In this document: positions 26,561-32,000 of the stretch, piece by piece | Numbering within the stretch: position 1 is the first letter of the stretch | Layout: each line of letters begins with the position of its first letter | Assembly: GCA_963705375.1 (NCBI GenBank) | Contig: OY970071.1 | Location: 930,001-962,000, forward strand | Reading direction: 5' to 3' | Length of the DNA stretch: 32,000 nucleotides | Origin: Candidatus Saccharimonadota bacterium | GTDB taxonomy: Archaea > Micrarchaeota > Micrarchaeia > Micrarchaeales > Micrarchaeaceae | Translations under genes and position numbers: made by a program | The notes under the pieces: generated by a model | Database searches by the model: none | Told to the model about the DNA's origin: nothing | The model's input: only the letters and a program-made list of their open reading frames with translations

Positions 26561-29263
26561 ATGCGAGGGGAGCGTCGGACGGCGCAAATAGCCATGGAGT
26601 TCCTTACTGTCTACTCTTTTGTACTGCTTATATTTGTCATATTCTTCATGCTCATAACCTCTCAGCGTGCGTCGTCCCTCGCGCAGCAGCAGTATGCGCA
26701 GCTACAGCTACAAGCGCAGAATATAGCCGATGTGATAAACGAGGCTGTGGGTGCCGGCAACGGGTTTTCTGCGACTGTGTCGCTGCAGAGTGCGGTCAGT
26801 TCTTCGGTGCCGTACAATCTCTCAGTTTCAGATACTGGTGTGGTGATTGCTAAGGAGAAGGTCGGGAATCAGGTGATAACGGCTTATGCGTTCAGTATTG
26901 CGAAGTCTCTTTCGATAAATGGGACACTGCTGTCGAATGGGAATGGGTATTTGATTCCTACGGCAAGTGGTATCATGAAAGTGGTAAACTCACACGGTAC
27001 GATATTTGTAGATTCTGCTCCCGCCGCAACACTGCAGCTGCCATACTCTATCACCGTGGACCAGCTGCAACATGTCAAGGTCGCAAGCTTCGACGGAGTG
27101 AACAGCTACATTGGCACAGGCACATCAGGATTGCCTCTTGGCAACAGCCCTAGAAGTGTCTTTGCGTGGGTATACTTTACCGGCCTATCTGGTGGCGGCT
27201 GCACTAGCTATCACGGTACGATCTACAGTTATGGTGCTGAATCTGATCATCAATGGTCTACTTTACGAACGTGCAATGATGGCGCTGTGTCATTTTCTGG
27301 ATATGACGACGATTTTACCTCAACATTTACTCCCGCTCCAAATACGTGGTATTTCGTCGGATATACTTATGCGGCTGGTACAACCAATACTGTGACGCTT
27401 TACATGGATGGACAGTCGCAAACATCCAATCTTGGACAAGCTCTAAGTACTGCACTTCCTAGTTCGAACTCTGCGGAGATAGGGGCGTATTCAAACCCTC
27501 CAGGTACTTTCTTTCAAGGTTCGATCTCCAATCTCCAGGTCTACGGCACGGCGCTCACCGTAGCGCAGGCTTCGCAACTATACAAGGAGGGCATCACAGG
27601 CATTCCCGTGTCTACTGCAAACCTTGTCGGATGGTGGCCCCTGAATGGCAACACCAACGATTATTCGGGCAGCGTCAACAACGGCGTGCCCACAAACATG
27701 ATCTATAACGGCACAGTGTCCGTGCTTGCACACCTTTCCATGGAAGACGGCGCTGATGCTGCGAACGTGCTTGTTGGAGGGGTGACCCGCAACGGCACAT
27801 TCAATCAAACTTCAATGTCGAGCTTCACAGCATACACAAACAGCACAGGCTTCGTGCAGACCTACATAACCGCGCCTAATGTCTCTAGGCTCGACTTTAC
27901 ACTGTTCGGCTTCAACGGCAACAACACCATACAAGGTAATCTTAAAGGCTGGTGGCCGTTGGAAGAAGGCTACGGAAACAGCATCTATGACTTGAGCACC
28001 AACGGCAACAACGGTGTGTTTAATGCGCCATTCTGGGCCCCATTGGCCTACCAAACTAACTTCGCCGTCGCGGACTTTAATGGCATGAGCAGCACCATAA
28101 GCACAGGGACAAACAATTTCCCTGCCGGAAGCTCTCCAAGTTCCTTCTTCACCTGGGTTTACGCTACTGCAACGCCTTCCCAATACGGTGCGCTTTTTGC
28201 TTATGGCGTTCCAGAAGAGGATTATGAAATGGCTGCCTTGGCCCTGTCATCTACTGGTGCACTGATATTTGCTGATTCGGTGAATACAGGTGTCACTTTT
28301 GGTGCTATGCCCGTCTCGCTGAATGCTTGGCACTTCGTAGGCTGGACTTATGACGGCAGGAATAATCTCACCTTATATGTTGACGGCGCCTCGAATTCAT
28401 ATAACATGCCGCAGCAAAATGTAGTGTTAAACTCCCAGCGCATTCCACACATGGGCTCTTTCTATGGTGCAGGTTTCTTCCTCTCAGGTATGATGTCCAA
28501 CGCCCAGCTCTACAATACTGCACTCACCACGGCGCAAGTGTCTCACATATATGCTGAGGGCATTGCAGGCTCGCCGATAGGAAACTCAGGTCTTGCTGGG
28601 TGGTGGCCTCTGGCCCATACTGCTGAAGACTACTCGGGCAACGGCAATAACGGTACGGCATCGGATGTCATTTACAGCAATGCAGCGTACGCCACTTCAA
28701 TTGGTGCTGTGCGCTCAACAAGCTTCAACGGTTCTAGCAGCTACATCTCCGTTCCTTCGGCCGGCGTCTCTTTCAACGGACAGAGTGCGATCTCTGTTGC
28801 GGCATGGGTTGATCCTTCAACATTCCGCTCTGACCCTGACTTTTCAACAATAGTGGCAAAGTCGAATGCATACTATCTCCAACTCGATTCTGAAGGAAGG
28901 CCTGCATCCTTTTTGAATGGGATAGATTCAGAATACCTTCATTCTCCAATCAGAATAAAAAACAACACTTGGTCACAGGTTGCGTTAACTTACAACGGAT
29001 CCGCAGAGACGCTGTACATAAACGGCAAGGCAGTCAATTCCATCGCAGTTTCCGGTACTATCTCTGATACTGCCGGCAGCTATCTGGGCATTGGCGCCAA
29101 CCTGAATTATGCTGGCAATCTTTACCTAGGTTACAACCGGAGATTCGATGGCCTTATCTCTGATGTGCAGGTCTATCATGCTCCTCTGACGGCGCAGCAG
29201 ATCCAGCAATTATATCTCCAAGGGTTCCCATTGTATGACAGATTGAATGTGACTTTCGGATGA
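26561..29263 (+). CDS. Class-III-signal (pilin-like) surface protein with multiple LamG (Laminin_G_3-like) domains
   Basis: The start was trimmed to the ATG at 26561. MRGERRTAQIAMEFLTVYSFVLLIFVIFFML closely follows the archaeal pilin QIAMEL/QxSxEF signal. Repeated LamG_3-type domain ends are FQGSISNLQVYGTALTVAQASQLYKEGI, LSGMMSNAQLYNTALTTAQVSHIYAEGI and FDGLISDVQVYHAPLTAQQIQQLYLQGF. Each is followed by a GWWPL..G..NDYSG..NNG entry into the next domain. At least a dozen N-x-S/T sequons are present. Confidence 0.8.
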   Translation: MRGERRTAQIAMEFLTVYSFVLLIFVIFFMLITSQRASSLAQQQYAQLQLQAQNIADVINEAVGAGNGFSATVSLQSAVSSSVPYNLSVSDTGVVIAKEKVGNQVITAYAFSIAKSLSINGTLLSNGNGYLIPTASGIMKVVNSHGTIFVDSAPAATLQLPYSITVDQLQHVKVASFDGVNSYIGTGTSGLPLGNSPRSVFAWVYFTGLSGGGCTSYHGTIYSYGAESDHQWSTLRTCNDGAVSFSGYDDDFTSTFTPAPNTWYFVGYTYAAGTTNTVTLYMDGQSQTSNLGQALSTALPSSNSAEIGAYSNPPGTFFQGSISNLQVYGTALTVAQASQLYKEGITGIPVSTANLVGWWPLNGNTNDYSGSVNNGVPTNMIYNGTVSVLAHLSMEDGADAANVLVGGVTRNGTFNQTSMSSFTAYTNSTGFVQTYITAPNVSRLDFTLFGFNGNNTIQGNLKGWWPLEEGYGNSIYDLSTNGNNGVFNAPFWAPLAYQTNFAVADFNGMSSTISTGTNNFPAGSSPSSFFTWVYATATPSQYGALFAYGVPEEDYEMAALALSSTGALIFADSVNTGVTFGAMPVSLNAWHFVGWTYDGRNNLTLYVDGASNSYNMPQQNVVLNSQRIPHMGSFYGAGFFLSGMMSNAQLYNTALTTAQVSHIYAEGIAGSPIGNSGLAGWWPLAHTAEDYSGNGNNGTASDVIYSNAAYATSIGAVRSTSFNGSSSYISVPSAGVSFNGQSAISVAAWVDPSTFRSDPDFSTIVAKSNAYYLQLDSEGRPASFLNGIDSEYLHSPIRIKNNTWSQVALTYNGSAETLYINGKAVNSIAVSGTISDTAGSYLGIGANLNYAGNLYLGYNRRFDGLISDVQVYHAPLTAQQIQQLYLQGFPLYDRLNVTFG

Positions 29264-29267
29264 TGTC

Positions 29268-29843
29268 ATGGCATTAAAATTCTATAACGGAAGCTTCAAG
29301 GCGCAGTTCTGGAGCTCCGACCTGATATTCTCCGTAGTCATATTCAGCTTCGCGCTCACTATACTTGCGTACACCTGGTTCAACATCGGCAACCAGCTAG
29401 CCAGCGCATACAGTGGCACATCAATAATTCTCCAGCTACAGGCACAGACGCTTGTTCAGAACCTGATGACTACGGGTGCTCCTGCAAACTGGCAGAGCAC
29501 TGTCGATACAACTAATGTTATGGACTGGCGCGATGTGAGTGTGGGCCTTGCCAGCACTTCATCGAACAGCAGCATCTCTACCGGCAAGCTCTACGCCTTG
29601 ATATCCATGGCCAACTACAATTATCCTGCTTCAAAGCAGCCGCTAGGTGTGGCATTCGACTATTACATAACGATAGTCGGCAGCCCTGGCAGCGCAAATA
29701 CAATAAACATCGGGATAGGGCGCAACCCTTCCACAAACATTGTGCTTGCAGAGCATTCCCAAAGGATATCAGCGACTCTGAATGGCGTGCCGGTCATCGT
29801 CACCGTAACGGTGTGGACCAACACGAATTTTGCATTGGGTTGA
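29268..29843 (+). CDS. Small pilin-like/secreted protein with a class III-type N-terminus
   Basis: MALKFYNGSFKAQFWSSDLIFSVVIFSFALTILAY has a charged leader, a KA/Q junction and a hydrophobic helix. It lies 4 nt after the upstream stop and 3 nt before the next start. Confidence 0.6.
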   Translation: MALKFYNGSFKAQFWSSDLIFSVVIFSFALTILAYTWFNIGNQLASAYSGTSIILQLQAQTLVQNLMTTGAPANWQSTVDTTNVMDWRDVSVGLASTSSNSSISTGKLYALISMANYNYPASKQPLGVAFDYYITIVGSPGSANTINIGIGRNPSTNIVLAEHSQRISATLNGVPVIVTVTVWTNTNFALG

Positions 29844-31661: not shown

Positions 31662-31999
31662 AGCTTCCGATGTGTGTTACTGGCGCTCAGAAGGGTATGC
31701 TCTTCACGCTGATCACCATAGTGCTTGTCACTCTCATGCTTGCGATCGTGATGACATATTTATTGCTGAACATAAACTACGACAACCAGGCGTCTCGGGC
31801 CTACGGTGTCCTTGGCACCGACAATTTTGCAAGCTTGATACAAAGCGCAATGCCATCGCTGCTGGCCACCAGCCTGCAGAATGCACAGCATGCGTATCTA
31901 TCCGAAAACCTTGTGGAATGGTTGCCTCTTAGTGGTAACGCCAACGACTACAGCCGCAACGGCAACGACGGCGCTTCGACCAATGTGATATATGTGCCT
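31658..31999 (+). CDS. Class-III-signal LamG-type surface protein, N-terminal part (runs off the window end)
   Basis: This ORF is absent from the supplied track because it has no stop in the window. Its ATG at 31658 overlaps the upstream stop (ATGA). The translation is MKLPMCVTGAQKGMLFTLITIVLVTLMLAIV...LVEWLPLSGNANDYSRNGNDGASTNVIYVP, with the same signal type and the same WxPL.GN.NDYS motif as its neighbours. Confidence 0.65.
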   Translation, partial: MKLPMCVTGAQKGMLFTLITIVLVTLMLAIVMTYLLLNINYDNQASRAYGVLGTDNFASLIQSAMPSLLATSLQNAQHAYLSENLVEWLPLSGNANDYSRNGNDGASTNVIYVP

Positions 32000-32000
32000 A

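What the first reader, a model, noticed from the sequence alone, without database searches (positions are those of the whole stretch)
26561..32000. Tight operon of at least 4 class-III-signal proteins carrying multiple LamG domains: a candidate pilus-associated adhesin system
**What the sequence shows**
- Four consecutive plus-strand genes (26561-29263, 29268-29843, 29847-31661, and 31658 to past the window end) are separated by +4, +3 and -4 nt.
- All four begin with a short charged leader followed by a hydrophobic helix of type IV pilin/archaellin type (TAQIAMEFL..., KAQFWSSDLIF..., KGFAFTLDALF..., KGMLFTLITIV...).
- Three of them carry serial Laminin_G_3-like jelly-roll domains.
- The 900-aa product has at least a dozen N-x-S/T sequons, which suggests an extracellular glycoprotein.

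**Interpretation**
- Large pilin-signal proteins with lectin-like domains would be processed by a prepilin peptidase and presented on a pilus or the cell surface.
- In an archaeon this is a plausible cell-cell or host-attachment apparatus.
- The operon continues beyond the window, so an ATPase or platform protein may follow.
Basis: partly seen in the sequence, partly recalled or inferred. Interest (0 to 1): 0.65.

Follow-up and report, generated by a model that had tools for sequence, protein, structure and literature searches.

The report
Pilin-like LamG adhesin genes, Micrarchaeota pilus
Four tightly packed genes of a tiny symbiotic archaeon (Micrarchaeota) encode pilin-like proteins, three probably carrying lectin-like LamG domains; in relatives they sit beside a type IV pilus motor, so they are probably the sticky minor subunits of a host-attachment pilus, a link already noted in the literature.

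Summary
Four plus-strand genes (26561-29263, 29268-29843, 29847-31661, 31658 to the window end) are spaced +4, +3 and -4 nt. Each starts with a short basic leader and a class-III-type hydrophobic helix. Pfam finds three Laminin_G_3 domains in gene 1 and two in gene 3. Gene 4 is cut at 114 aa, and its LamG content is inferred from orthologues.

The closest relatives are Micrarchaeota (DPANN archaea). In 28 of 29 related loci with at least 10 kb of downstream DNA, the quartet faces a convergent cluster of two T2SSF platform genes, a T2SSE ATPase and two accessory genes. This is the "System 1"/Epd-like archaeal type IV pilus.

- The quartet's N-terminal signatures are nearly invariant: Q+1/E+5, Q+1/D+6, D+6, and no acidic residue in gene 4.
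- The same gene order occurs without LamG in a distant archaeon, and with a VWA insert in a Pacearchaeote.
- The scaffolds are conserved (72-84% identity). The LamG bodies diverge (16-30%) and vary in number.

Best reading: a minor-pilin-like set that displays swappable adhesin modules.

LamG genes linked to pilus loci in Micrarchaeota were already reported in 2017, so this is a new member or variant of a known kind. No function has been tested.

The parts
26375..26560 (.). Divergent intergenic region between the Hel308-type helicase gene (minus strand; probable start at 26374) and gene 1. It contains AT-rich TATA-like stretches (TTTTTATT about 30 nt and TATATA about 10 nt before the ATG).
   Evidence: Sequence read. 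The helicase start is inferred from 709-aa orthologues. The promoter role is inference only.
26561..29263 (+). Gene 1, 900 aa. Leader MRGERRTA, then QIAMEFLTVYSFVLLIF (Q+1, E+5; DUF361/UPF0333-type class III N-terminus). A conserved N-terminal domain of about 170 aa is followed by LamG, a small conserved beta domain, LamG and LamG.
   Evidence: The N-terminal 177 aa align over the whole 139-aa LamG-free counterpart in L084.
27092..27574 (+). Gene 1, LamG domain 1 (aa 178-338).
   Evidence: HMM built from the window and related loci; PF13385 gives 3 stretches.
28079..28543 (+). Gene 1, LamG domain 2 (aa 507-661).
28727..29206 (+). Gene 1, LamG domain 3 (aa 723-882).
   Evidence: The only sequence match in the PDB is 4QVS, an S-layer-domain protein.
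29268..29843 (+). Gene 2, 191 aa, with no LamG. Leader MALKFYNGSFKA, then QFWSSDLIFSVVIF (Q+1, D+6). It is a small pilin-like protein and the best marker of the cassette.
   Evidence: The AF2 model has mean pLDDT 85.8, with a helix at 13-48 continuing at 50-66 followed by a 4-stranded sheet. It has no Pfam family. Distant relatives hit DUF7287.
29847..31661 (+). Gene 3, 604 aa. Leader MAYNMKG, then FAFTLDALFALIVAG (D+6). It is a gene-2-like scaffold with two LamG domains inserted before the last beta-hairpin (...YNVSVVIWR).
   Evidence: hhalign of the gene-2 family against the gene-3 core gives probability 92.8%, E=4e-7, over 162 columns.
30195..30674 (+). Gene 3, LamG domain 1 (aa 117-276). 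It is absent from the 375-405-aa orthologues.
30936..31397 (+). Gene 3, LamG domain 2 (aa 364-517).
31658..32000 (+). Gene 4, first 114 aa only. Leader MKLPMCVTGAQKG, then MLFTLITIVLVTLMLAIV (no acidic residue in +1..+12). Orthologues are about 520-1560 aa and mostly carry 2 LamG domains, and some carry DUF2341.

Best explanation
The four genes encode a conserved quartet of type-IV-pilin-like (class III signal) proteins. This quartet belongs to the Epd-like 'System 1' type IV pilus of Micrarchaeota.

Inferred mechanism:
1. An EppA/PibD-type prepilin peptidase, encoded elsewhere in the genome, removes the short basic leaders.
2. The hydrophobic N-terminal helices of the four mature proteins pack together on the platform made by two TadB/TadC-like proteins.
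3. The CpaF/FlaI-type ATPase then polymerises a separately encoded short major pilin beneath them.

The quartet would thus act as a minor-pilin priming or tip complex. Gene 4, the only member without the acidic +5/+6 residue, would be the candidate for the outermost subunit. The 5 LamG jelly-roll domains seen in genes 1 and 3 (up to about 9 per cassette in relatives), plus DUF2341 in some gene-4 orthologues, are cargo grafted onto these scaffolds. They would bind glycans or glycoproteins on the host cell or in the biofilm matrix. They evolve fast and vary in copy number, which would tune attachment specificity.

Shown here: gene structure, LamG domains, conserved N-terminal signatures, linkage to the pilus motor in relatives, and scaffold/module mosaicism.

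Inferred: cleavage, incorporation into a filament, tip position, the ligand and the role in host attachment.
For: 1. Linkage to a pilus motor. Relatives have, convergent to the quartet, T2SSF (330 aa), T2SSF (455 aa), a 222-aa protein, T2SSE (480 aa) and a 429-aa coiled-coil protein. Of 29 loci with at least 10 kb downstream of gene 2, 28 have both the ATPase and the platform genes, always on the minus strand, 2.8-7.1 kb after gene 2. There are 51 distinct gene-2 sequences among these loci.

2. Type of system. In the cultivated relative Ca. Micrarchaeum harzensis A_DKE (L020), the published annotation calls these genes CpaF-family ATPase arCOG01819 and TadC arCOG01811/01812. That genome also has an EppA-type peptidase (arCOG02300) and a 68-aa Flp-like pilin elsewhere. 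The quartet is transcribed in co-culture at 0.69-0.92 TPM, similar to SufB (0.53) and SMC (1.43) (PMC8975820 Suppl. Data S5). One ATPase plus two platform genes defines 'System 1' (bioRxiv 10.64898/2026.04.22.720090).

3. Pilin-like N-termini. Gene 1 has Q+1 and E/D+5 in 40/40 distinct orthologues. Gene 2 has Q+1 and D+6 in 44/44. Gene 3 has D+6 in 43/43. Gene 4 has no acidic residue in +1..+12 in 39/39. Q at +1 is the EppA-substrate signature (Szabo 2007, as cited in PMC4858521; the +1 Q detail is from my own knowledge).

4. Gene 2 structure. The AF2 model (mean pLDDT 85.8) shows a long N-terminal helix (residues 13-48, continuing at 50-66) followed by a 4-stranded sheet, which is a pilin-like topology.

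5. Gene 3 as a scaffold with inserts. With its LamG domains removed, the gene-3 core is homologous to gene 2 (hhalign 92.8%, E=4e-7).

6. The quartet exists without LamG. L084 has genes of 139, 185, 150 and 296 aa with the same order and signatures. A Pacearchaeote (L087) has the same order next to T2SSE and two T2SSF genes, with a VWA domain inserted in its gene-3 counterpart.

7. Mosaic divergence. Scaffold regions are 72-84% identical to relatives, whereas LamG bodies are 16-30% identical. LamG counts per orthologue are 2-4 for gene 1, 1-2 for gene 3 and 0-3 for gene 4.

8. Prior models. Makarova 2016 placed DUF2341-containing large proteins of clade 1 loci at the pilus tip and counted at least 5 minor pilins. 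Golyshina 2017 noted LamG genes linked to T4P loci in Mia14.
Against: - The window ends before any motor gene, and its own genome could not be retrieved.
- No Pfam pilin or Class_IIIsignal model hits the four proteins at E<=0.1.
- The gene 2 model has no significant PDB fold match (best E=4e-3, TM about 0.25).
- The gene 3 model was too poor to use (mean pLDDT 58).
- For genes 3 and 4, correspondence with the LamG-free quartet rests on gene order and N-terminal motif only. BLAST found nothing.
- Two loci with more than 9 kb downstream (L017, L064) lack the motor genes nearby, and L084 has none within 8 kb.
- The -1 residue before the predicted cleavage site is sometimes L, S or F rather than G or A.
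- The published Micrarchaeota papers I read report no pili on A_DKE or Mia14 cells. The A_DKE paper does not mention pili at all.
- The tip position and the GspK-like role of gene 4 are analogies, not tests.
Confidence: 0.6

Rival explanations
1. Pseudopilus or bindosome-like display. The four proteins are processed by the class III peptidase and depend on the adjacent ATPase and platform. They form only a short stalk that spans the S-layer, or stay anchored by their N-terminal helices, and hold LamG lectins at the cell surface. No long pilus is made.
For: There is no major pilin gene in the window or inside the conserved locus. The proteins are very large for pilus subunits. Sulfolobus sugar-binding proteins with class III signals use a dedicated T4P-like system (bindosome, subsystem 4I) without a visible pilus. 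The A_DKE paper reports no pili.
Against: The A_DKE genome encodes a 68-aa Flp-like pilin and a 159-aa pilin elsewhere. System 1 major pilins are typically encoded at separate loci. Pili-like connections between ARMAN cells and Thermoplasmatales have been described by electron microscopy (cited in PMC5498576).
Confidence: 0.2
2. Gene 2 is the major pilin of this system. It polymerises into the filament shaft, and genes 1, 3 and 4 are accessory adhesins incorporated sporadically or at the tip.
For: Gene 2 is the only member without adhesin modules. It has the size of many archaeal pilins (about 179 aa mature). It has a confident helix-plus-sheet model. It belongs to a large family of 774 representative clusters.
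Against: In A_DKE it is transcribed at the same low level as its operon partners (0.69 against 0.70-0.92 TPM), not in the excess expected of a major subunit. It always occurs as one of a fixed, ordered quartet, including in the LamG-free version. System 1 shafts are described as made of short Flp-like pilins lacking a globular domain.
Confidence: 0.12
3. These are ordinary membrane-anchored or S-layer-associated LamG surface proteins. Their N-terminal helix is an uncleaved signal-anchor, and the neighbouring pilus genes are a coincidence of a syntenic, reduced genome.
For: No pilin HMM hits any of the four. The only PDB sequence match of the LamG part is an S-layer-domain protein. Upstream synteny with housekeeping genes (histone, Hel308, LeuRS) is also conserved in a subset of loci.
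Against: The pairing with the motor persists in lineages where the upstream housekeeping synteny is lost, and in a different phylum with a different gene orientation (L087). The invariant Q+1 and acidic +5/+6 signatures and short basic leaders are not features of generic signal anchors. Hel308 was found in only 16 of the first 77 loci fetched, against 37 with the ATPase.
Confidence: 0.05

Closest known systems
Archaeal type IV pilus 'clade 1' / 'System 1' (Epd pilus of Methanococcus maripaludis and relatives; Makarova 2016, PMC4858521; 2026 preprint 10.64898/2026.04.22.720090)
   Same: In relatives there is one CpaF/VirB11-family ATPase plus two TadC-like platform genes. There are several class-III-signal minor-pilin-like proteins, two of them with Q at +1. 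Large adhesin-type proteins carry DUF2341 (some gene-4 orthologues). An EppA-type peptidase and a short Flp-like pilin are encoded elsewhere in the A_DKE genome.
   Different: The pilin-like proteins themselves are fused to 1-4 LamG domains each. The peptidase and the FleN/MinD ATPase are not in the locus. The accessory 222-aa and 429-aa proteins have no Pfam family. I did not test homology of the quartet to EpdB/C/D.
LamG gene expansion linked to type IV pili loci in Ca. Mancarchaeum acidiphilum Mia14 (Golyshina 2017, PMC5498576)
   Same: Same phylum and same statement: jelly-roll LamG proteins are expanded in DPANN archaea, some lie next to T4P loci, and a role in host interaction is proposed.
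   Different: That paper gives one sentence of annotation. It does not describe a conserved four-gene pilin-like cassette, its N-terminal signatures, a LamG-free ancestral form, or the scaffold/module mosaic. I did not compare the Mia14 locus directly here.
Bacterial minor-pilin tip complexes (T2SS GspH-I-J-K; T4aP FimU-PilV-W-X with PilY1)
   Same: A set of four co-encoded pilin-like proteins sits beside the motor. One member lacks the acidic residue near +5, as in GspK/PilX (established knowledge, Korotkov and Hol 2008). A large adhesin is carried at the tip. Some gene-3 orthologues carry PQQ-type beta-propellers, reminiscent of the PilY1 propeller.
   Different: No sequence or fold similarity was detected. 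The acidic residue is at +6 in two members. The adhesin modules are fused to the pilin-like proteins rather than being a separate PilY1. The complex itself is unproven.
TafC, tip subunit of haloarchaeal Tat-fimbriae (PMC11821415; NCBIfam NF052521)
   Same: It is an archaeal filament subunit with a laminin-G-like domain that, in that paper's AlphaFold models, points outward at the tip. It was found at about 1 per 100 major subunits in purified fimbriae. The LamG parts of genes 1 and 3 give partial hits to the TafC model.
   Different: The scores are 75 and 52 bits against a cut-off of 410 bits. TafC is Tat-secreted and assembles by donor-strand exchange, not by a class III signal and a T4P motor.
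Pfam DUF7287 (uncharacterised archaeal family)
   Same: 37 of 119 distant relatives of the gene 2 profile match it nearly full length (best E=2.8e-7).
   Different: Gene 2 and its 51 close homologues do not hit it, even at E<=10. No literature on the family was found.

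Membership tests
Laminin_G_3 / concanavalin A-like lectin superfamily (PF13385) | HMM match above the Pfam gathering score (27.6 bits) | tested here: met
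   Gene 1 scores 171.1 bits with 3 stretches. Gene 3 scores 132.9 bits with 2 stretches. The gene 4 fragment and gene 2 have no hit. Gene 4 orthologues score 68-118 bits.
Archaeal type IV pilus System 1 / clade 1 (Epd-like) | A VirB11/CpaF-family secretion ATPase (T2SSE, arCOG01819) in the locus | tested here: inconclusive
   It is not inside the window, which ends in gene 4. It is present in 28 of 29 related loci with at least 10 kb downstream. PF00437 gives E=7e-32 in L002. The A_DKE annotation assigns arCOG01819. For this genome it is inferred from synteny only.
Archaeal type IV pilus System 1 / clade 1 (Epd-like) | A platform protein split into two TadB/TadC-like (T2SSF) genes | tested here: inconclusive
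   Two T2SSF genes lie in L002, L078, L020 and 30+ other related loci. They fall outside the window.
Archaeal type IV pilus System 1 / clade 1 (Epd-like) | Class III signal peptides of the EppA-substrate type (DUF361/UPF0333: short leader, Q at +1, QxxxE) | tested here: inconclusive
   The motif is present and invariant in gene 1 (QIAMEF) and gene 2 (QFWSSD). One orthologue was named UPF0333 by JGI. However, PF04021 does not hit the window proteins at E<=0.1. Genes 3 and 4 have F/I/L/M at +1. FlaFind was not available.
Archaeal type IV pilus System 1 / clade 1 (Epd-like) | A dedicated 9-TM prepilin peptidase EppA (arCOG02300) and a short Flp-like major pilin in the genome | not testable with these tools
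   Neither is in the 32-kb window. The cultivated relative A_DKE has both elsewhere in its genome (Micr_00634 and Micr_00425).
Archaeal type IV pilus System 1 / clade 1 (Epd-like) | Large DUF2341-containing, PilY-like putative tip adhesins in the locus (Makarova 2016) | tested here: inconclusive
   Gene 4 orthologues give DUF2341 at 66.6 bits in L034 (above the 23.4-bit cut-off), but only 19-22 bits in the close relatives L002 and L078, and nothing in A_DKE. The relevant part of the window's gene 4 lies beyond the window.
Type IV pilin fold | A long N-terminal alpha-helix packed against a C-terminal antiparallel beta-sheet, with similarity to solved pilins | tested here: inconclusive
   The gene 2 AF2 model (mean pLDDT 85.8) has a helix at 13-48 continuing at 50-66, plus 4 strands. 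Foldseek against the PDB found no significant match (best E=4e-3, TM 0.25, ribosomal uS3). The gene 3 model was unusable (mean pLDDT 58).
Bacterial minor-pilin tip complex (GspHIJK / FimU-PilVWX) | Homology to the GspH/I/J/K or PilV/W/X families, and formation of a tip complex | tested here: not met
   No Pfam or NCBIfam hit to any pseudopilin or minor-pilin family. No fold match. Only the functional parallels hold: four co-encoded members, one without the acidic residue. Complex formation is not testable here. The claim is therefore 'works like', not 'is a member of'.
TafC family fimbrial protein (NF052521) | A score above the equivalog cut-off (410 bits), and a Tat signal | tested here: not met
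   The scores are 75.4 and 51.9 bits and cover only the LamG part of the model (positions about 200-370). The N-termini are class-III-like and have no twin-arginine Tat motif.
Sulfolobus-type bindosome | Class III signal on ABC-type solute-binding proteins, with BasABC small pilins and BasEF | tested here: not met
   No solute-binding-protein domains were found; only LamG was detected. In relatives the motor is of the two-platform System 1 type, not subsystem 4I.
Pfam DUF7287 | HMM match above the gathering score (27 bits) | tested here: not met
   Gene 2 and its 51 close homologues have no hit at E<=10. Only distant relatives of the family profile hit it: 37 of 119, best E=2.8e-7.

The most novel reading that the evidence does not exclude
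The ordered quartet is an ancestral DPANN-wide minor-pilin tip complex. Its members would be: gene 1, UPF0333-like; gene 2, DUF7287-like; gene 3, a gene 2 paralogue with an insertion site; gene 4, the member without an acidic residue. It would be the archaeal functional counterpart of bacterial GspHIJK / FimU-PilVWX.

The scaffold would accept interchangeable adhesin cassettes: LamG, PQQ propeller and DUF2341 in Micrarchaeota, VWA in Pacearchaeota, and none in the minimal form. Swapping and rapid divergence of these modules would set the host range of ultrasmall episymbiotic archaea.
Probability: 0.35. Interest if true: 0.65.

Novelty: new member of a known kind. Interest (0 to 1): 0.4.

Why it matters
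How DPANN archaea recognise and hold on to their hosts is still largely unknown, and Micrarchaeota have two cultivated host-symbiont pairs (A_DKE and Mia14). This locus gives a concrete, conserved and transcribed set of candidate attachment proteins. It also makes clear predictions:
- a cleavage site before Q+1, F+1 or M+1;
- location on a filament tip;
- LamG modules as the specificity determinants.

All of these can be tested directly in those co-cultures.

The finding that the LamG domains are grafts on a conserved four-protein pilin-like scaffold, with a LamG-free version in other archaea, suggests a general modular route by which episymbionts diversify adhesion.

As a genome annotation it is otherwise expected. 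The LamG-pilus linkage in this phylum and the tip-adhesin model for this pilus class are already published.

Tried and rejected
**Retrieving the rest of this genome**
- Exact look-ups of the window's gene 3 product found no contig.
- A 43-nt exact scan of metagenome contigs found nothing.
- The DNA downstream of the window therefore could not be read.

**Family and fold searches that gave nothing useful**
- Pfam and NCBIfam searches on gene 2 and on the gene 4 fragment found no family.
- The NCBIfam TafC hits are LamG-only and far below the cut-off, so membership is rejected.
- A Foldseek search of the gene 2 model against the PDB gave only insignificant ribosomal uS3-like hits.
- The AF2 model of gene 3 from 15 sequences had mean pLDDT 58, with the scaffold part below 50. 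I did not use it and ran no fold search on it.
- hhalign between gene 1, gene 4 and the other scaffolds showed no significant homology beyond the N-terminal helix.
- BLAST of the gene 3 core and the gene 4 N-terminus against the LamG-free quartet found no hit.

**Claims tested and rejected**
- Sequon enrichment as evidence of glycosylation is rejected. The 14 observed sequons equal the shuffle mean.

**Literature**
- Makarova 2016 does not mention LamG or DPANN.
- The main text of the A_DKE paper does not mention pili or adhesins.
- A search for DUF7287-7289 found nothing.

**Window scan**
- I scanned the window for a small major pilin and a prepilin peptidase and found none.

Full report
**1. 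Observation**

The four plus-strand ORFs are present at the stated coordinates:
- 26561-29263 (900 aa from the ATG at 26561);
- 29268-29843 (191 aa);
- 29847-31661 (604 aa);
- 31658 to the window end (114 codons).

The junctions read TGA-tgtc-ATG, TGA-aga-ATG and an ATGA overlap, that is +4, +3 and -4 nt.

Pfam finds Laminin_G_3 in gene 1 (E=2.3e-50, three stretches) and in gene 3 (E=1.4e-38, two stretches). It finds nothing in gene 2 or in the gene 4 fragment. With an HMM built from the window and related loci, the domains lie at aa 178-338, 507-661 and 723-882 of gene 1, and at aa 117-276 and 364-517 of gene 3.

The part of gene 4 inside the window holds only the linker motif EWLPLSGNANDYS. 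This motif precedes LamG domains in the other proteins. In support of the inference, 33 of 38 gene 4 orthologues carry 1-3 LamG domains.

Gene 1 has 14 N-x-S/T sequons, exactly the mean of composition-preserving shuffles (14.0 +/- 3.2). What is unusual is the composition: N+S+T is 28% and K+R+E is 5%. This is very different from the cytoplasmic proteins in the same window.

**2. The N-termini**

Each protein starts with a short basic leader and then a hydrophobic stretch:
- gene 1: MRGERRTA, then QIAMEFLTVYSF;
- gene 2: MALKFYNGSFKA, then QFWSSDLIFSVV;
- gene 3: MAYNMKG, then FAFTLDALFALI;
- gene 4: MKLPMCVTGAQKG, then MLFTLITIVLVT.

A crude class-III pattern scan over both strands of the 32-kb window returned these four genes, plus two hits in ORFs I take to be non-coding (out-of-frame or antisense to other genes).

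Across related loci the signatures are effectively invariant:
- gene 1 has Q+1 and E/D+5 in 40/40 distinct sequences;
- gene 2 has Q+1 and D+6 in 44/44;
- gene 3 has F/I+1 and D+6 in 43/43;
- gene 4 has no acidic residue in +1..+12 in 39/39.

The QxxxE form with Q at +1 is the DUF361/UPF0333 type processed by EppA in Methanococcus (PMC4858521; the +1 Q detail is from my own knowledge). One orthologue is labelled UPF0333 by JGI. Pfam's short Class_IIIsignal model did not reach E<=0.1 on the window proteins. Membership therefore rests on the motif.

**3. Where it comes from, and what lies next to it**

The window's own genome could not be retrieved. The protein database records its longest contig as 1.21 Mb.

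The nearest relatives are uncultured Micrarchaeota. L002 has 43% identity in gene 3, about 69% in gene 2 and 86% in the neighbouring Hel308 helicase. The set also includes the cultivated Ca. Micrarchaeum harzensis A_DKE (L020).

In L002 and L078 the order is:
- histone and Hel308 on the minus strand;
- genes 1-4 on the plus strand;
- then, convergent, T2SSF, T2SSF, a protein of about 222-237 aa, T2SSE, a coiled-coil protein of about 428-429 aa, and a GT4 glycosyltransferase.

Gene 2 is the LamG-free marker. Using it, 57 loci (51 distinct sequences) carry the cassette. Of the 29 loci with at least 10 kb downstream, 28 have the platform genes and the ATPase, always on the opposite strand, 2.8-7.1 kb after gene 2.

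The linkage to the motor is broader than the upstream housekeeping synteny. Among the first 77 loci fetched, Hel308 was found in 16 and the ATPase in 37.

In the published A_DKE annotation the genes are Micr_00441-00449:
- CpaF-family ATPase arCOG01819;
- TadC arCOG01811 and arCOG01812;
- LamG proteins of 1103, 620 and 930 aa;
- a 190-aa hypothetical protein.

They are transcribed in co-culture at 0.69-0.92 TPM, against 2.5 for the ATPase, 0.53 for SufB and 1.43 for SMC. The same genome has an EppA-type peptidase (arCOG02300), a 68-aa Flp-like pilin and a 159-aa pilin elsewhere.

One ATPase plus two platform genes defines the 'System 1' / clade 1 (Epd-like) archaeal type IV pilus. [quoted passage not shown]

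**4. Anatomy of the quartet**

*Gene 2.* It has 52 close homologues and no Pfam family. Its AF2 model is confident (mean pLDDT 85.8). It shows a long N-terminal helix (residues 13-48, continuing at 50-66) followed by short helices and a four-stranded sheet. That topology is pilin-like, but Foldseek finds no significant PDB match.

A profile search of 1.84 billion representatives finds 774 clusters at E<=1e-3. Of 119 distant members, 37 hit the uncharacterised Pfam DUF7287.

*Gene 3.* Its first 105 or so and last 90 or so residues are conserved, while the middle varies. Orthologues of 375-405 aa lack the first LamG domain. Others carry PQQ-type propeller domains. With the LamG domains removed, the gene 3 core aligns with the gene 2 family over 162 columns (hhalign probability 92.8%, E=4e-7). 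Gene 3 therefore looks like a gene 2 paralogue with modules inserted before the last beta-hairpin. The AF2 model of gene 3 was too poor to confirm this.

*Gene 1.* It has a conserved N-terminal domain of about 170 aa, followed by appended LamG domains.

*Gene 4.* Orthologues have a long N-terminal region, mostly two LamG domains, and in some a DUF2341 domain.

*Conservation along the proteins.* Identity to relatives is 72-84% in the scaffolds and linkers but only 16-30% in the LamG bodies. LamG number per orthologue varies: 2-4 for gene 1, 1-2 for gene 3 and 0-3 for gene 4.

**5. The quartet exists without LamG**

A distant gene 2 relative lies in a tight four-gene operon in L084:
- 139 aa, N-terminus QISAEF;
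- 185 aa, N-terminus QFFSTD;
- 150 aa, N-terminus LVLTFDA, ending ...MKLWYK;
- 296 aa, N-terminus FLFTIG after a ...KKG leader, with no acidic residue.

This is the same order and the same signatures, with no adhesin domains.

In a Pacearchaeote (L087), the same order sits divergent to T2SSE and two T2SSF genes. There are two gene-1-like proteins, a gene-2-like protein, a gene-3-like protein of 878 aa with a VWA domain, and a gene-4-like protein.

Gene 1 and gene 2 align with their small counterparts along their whole length (24-26% identity). For genes 3 and 4 the correspondence rests on position and motif only.

**6. How it most likely works**

The shown facts are:
- four conserved pilin-like N-termini;
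- a fixed gene order;
- near-obligate linkage to a System 1 motor in relatives;
- a conserved scaffold with divergent adhesin modules.

The best-supported reading is a minor-pilin set. It would be cleaved by a class III peptidase and would assemble on the two-protein platform. It would be pushed out by polymerisation of a separately encoded short pilin, so that it displays LamG lectin modules on the pilus.

By analogy with bacterial GspK/PilX, which lack Glu5 and cap the tip (established knowledge), gene 4 is the candidate outermost subunit. Makarova et al. had already placed DUF2341-bearing proteins of this pilus class at the tip.

The ligand is unknown. A glycan or glycoprotein on the wall-less Thermoplasmatales host or in the biofilm matrix is the natural guess.

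My confidence that these proteins are T4P-dependent surface adhesins is about 0.8. My confidence in the specific minor-pilin or tip-complex model is about 0.45. I give 0.6 for the combined statement.

Rivals:
- a short pseudopilus or bindosome-like display (0.2);
- gene 2 as the major pilin (0.12);
- unrelated membrane-anchored lectins (0.05).

**7. Comparison with what is known, and novelty**

- Golyshina et al. 2017 wrote that LamG-like proteins are expanded in Mia14 and in DPANN archaea, and that some are linked to type IV pili loci.
- Makarova et al. 2016 modelled clade 1 pili with several minor pilins and PilY-like DUF2341 adhesins.
- A 2026 preprint lists System 1 in DPANN archaea.
- Haloarchaeal TafC is an independent, experimentally detected case of a LamG-bearing filament subunit, which structure modelling places at the tip. 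Its secretion and assembly are entirely different, and the NCBIfam hit here is far below the cut-off.

The finding is therefore a new member of a known kind.

What this analysis adds:
- the definition of an ordered four-protein scaffold with diagnostic N-termini;
- its LamG-free and VWA-bearing versions in other DPANN lineages;
- the gene 2 / gene 3 paralogy;
- the scaffold/module mosaic.

None of this is functional evidence.

**8. Verdict**

The predicted ATPase and platform genes are found in relatives, but convergent rather than in the same operon.

Interest is moderate (0.4). The locus is unsurprising to a specialist, but it gives testable candidates for DPANN host attachment.

Noticed in passing
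window 13450-24171: There are four tandem paralogous units. Each encodes a protein made of 13-25 copies of an 84-bp (28-aa) repeat (DNIQTLTANHLPLDQSIAVLGSDPQHLR; 597, 933, 681 and 597 aa). Each is followed by a 123-aa BofA-like membrane protein (PF07441). This stretch has strongly negative GC skew, and the long antisense ORFs in it are repeat artefacts. The relatives L002 and L081 have only one 94-aa BofA-like gene at this position, so the array is a lineage-specific amplification. Function is unknown.
   Followed up: partly
L010, L012, L017, L020-type loci; proteins P0009, P0010, P0012, P0017, P0020, P0022, P0026, P0027: Gene 3 orthologues in other Micrarchaeota carry PQQ-type beta-propeller domains (PF13360/PF13570) as well as, or instead of, a LamG domain. 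This is reminiscent of the propeller of bacterial PilY1.
   Followed up: no
L084 7592-9878; L087 7892-13364: L084 holds a LamG-free minimal quartet (139, 185, 150 and 296 aa) with the same N-terminal signatures. No pilus motor lies within 8 kb of it. In a Pacearchaeote (L087), a version with a VWA domain inserted in the gene-3-like protein sits beside T2SSE and two T2SSF genes.
   Followed up: partly
L002 16914-17582 and 19082-20371 (minus strand); equivalents in about 30 loci: Two conserved proteins without any Pfam family always flank the pilus ATPase. One is about 222 aa and acidic/Ala-rich. The other is about 429 aa and a coiled-coil protein. They may be cytoplasmic parts of the motor.
   Followed up: no
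L003, L007, L009, L016, L025, L039: MAGs labelled Methanothrix, Marsarchaeota, 'Acidiferrales bacterium' or 'bacterium' carry the Micrarchaeota-type cassette with the same neighbours. These are probably binning or labelling errors rather than horizontal transfer.
   Followed up: no
window 24245-26587 (minus strand): The mechanical ORF of the Hel308-type helicase extends to a TTG at 26587 and would overlap the start of gene 1. Orthologues of 709 aa indicate that the real start is the ATG at 26374. That leaves a 186-bp divergent intergenic region.
   Followed up: partly
window 2799-3554 (plus strand): A 251-aa protein has a divergent InlB B-repeat (Flg_new_2) hit at its C-terminus (E=3.6e-6). 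It may be another surface protein.
   Followed up: no
gene 2 family (alignments A2, A4): The gene 2 profile reaches 774 representative clusters of proteins of about 160-190 aa. A third of the distant ones match the uncharacterised Pfam DUF7287. This suggests that DUF7287 is a pilin-like minor-subunit family. No literature on it was found.
   Followed up: partly
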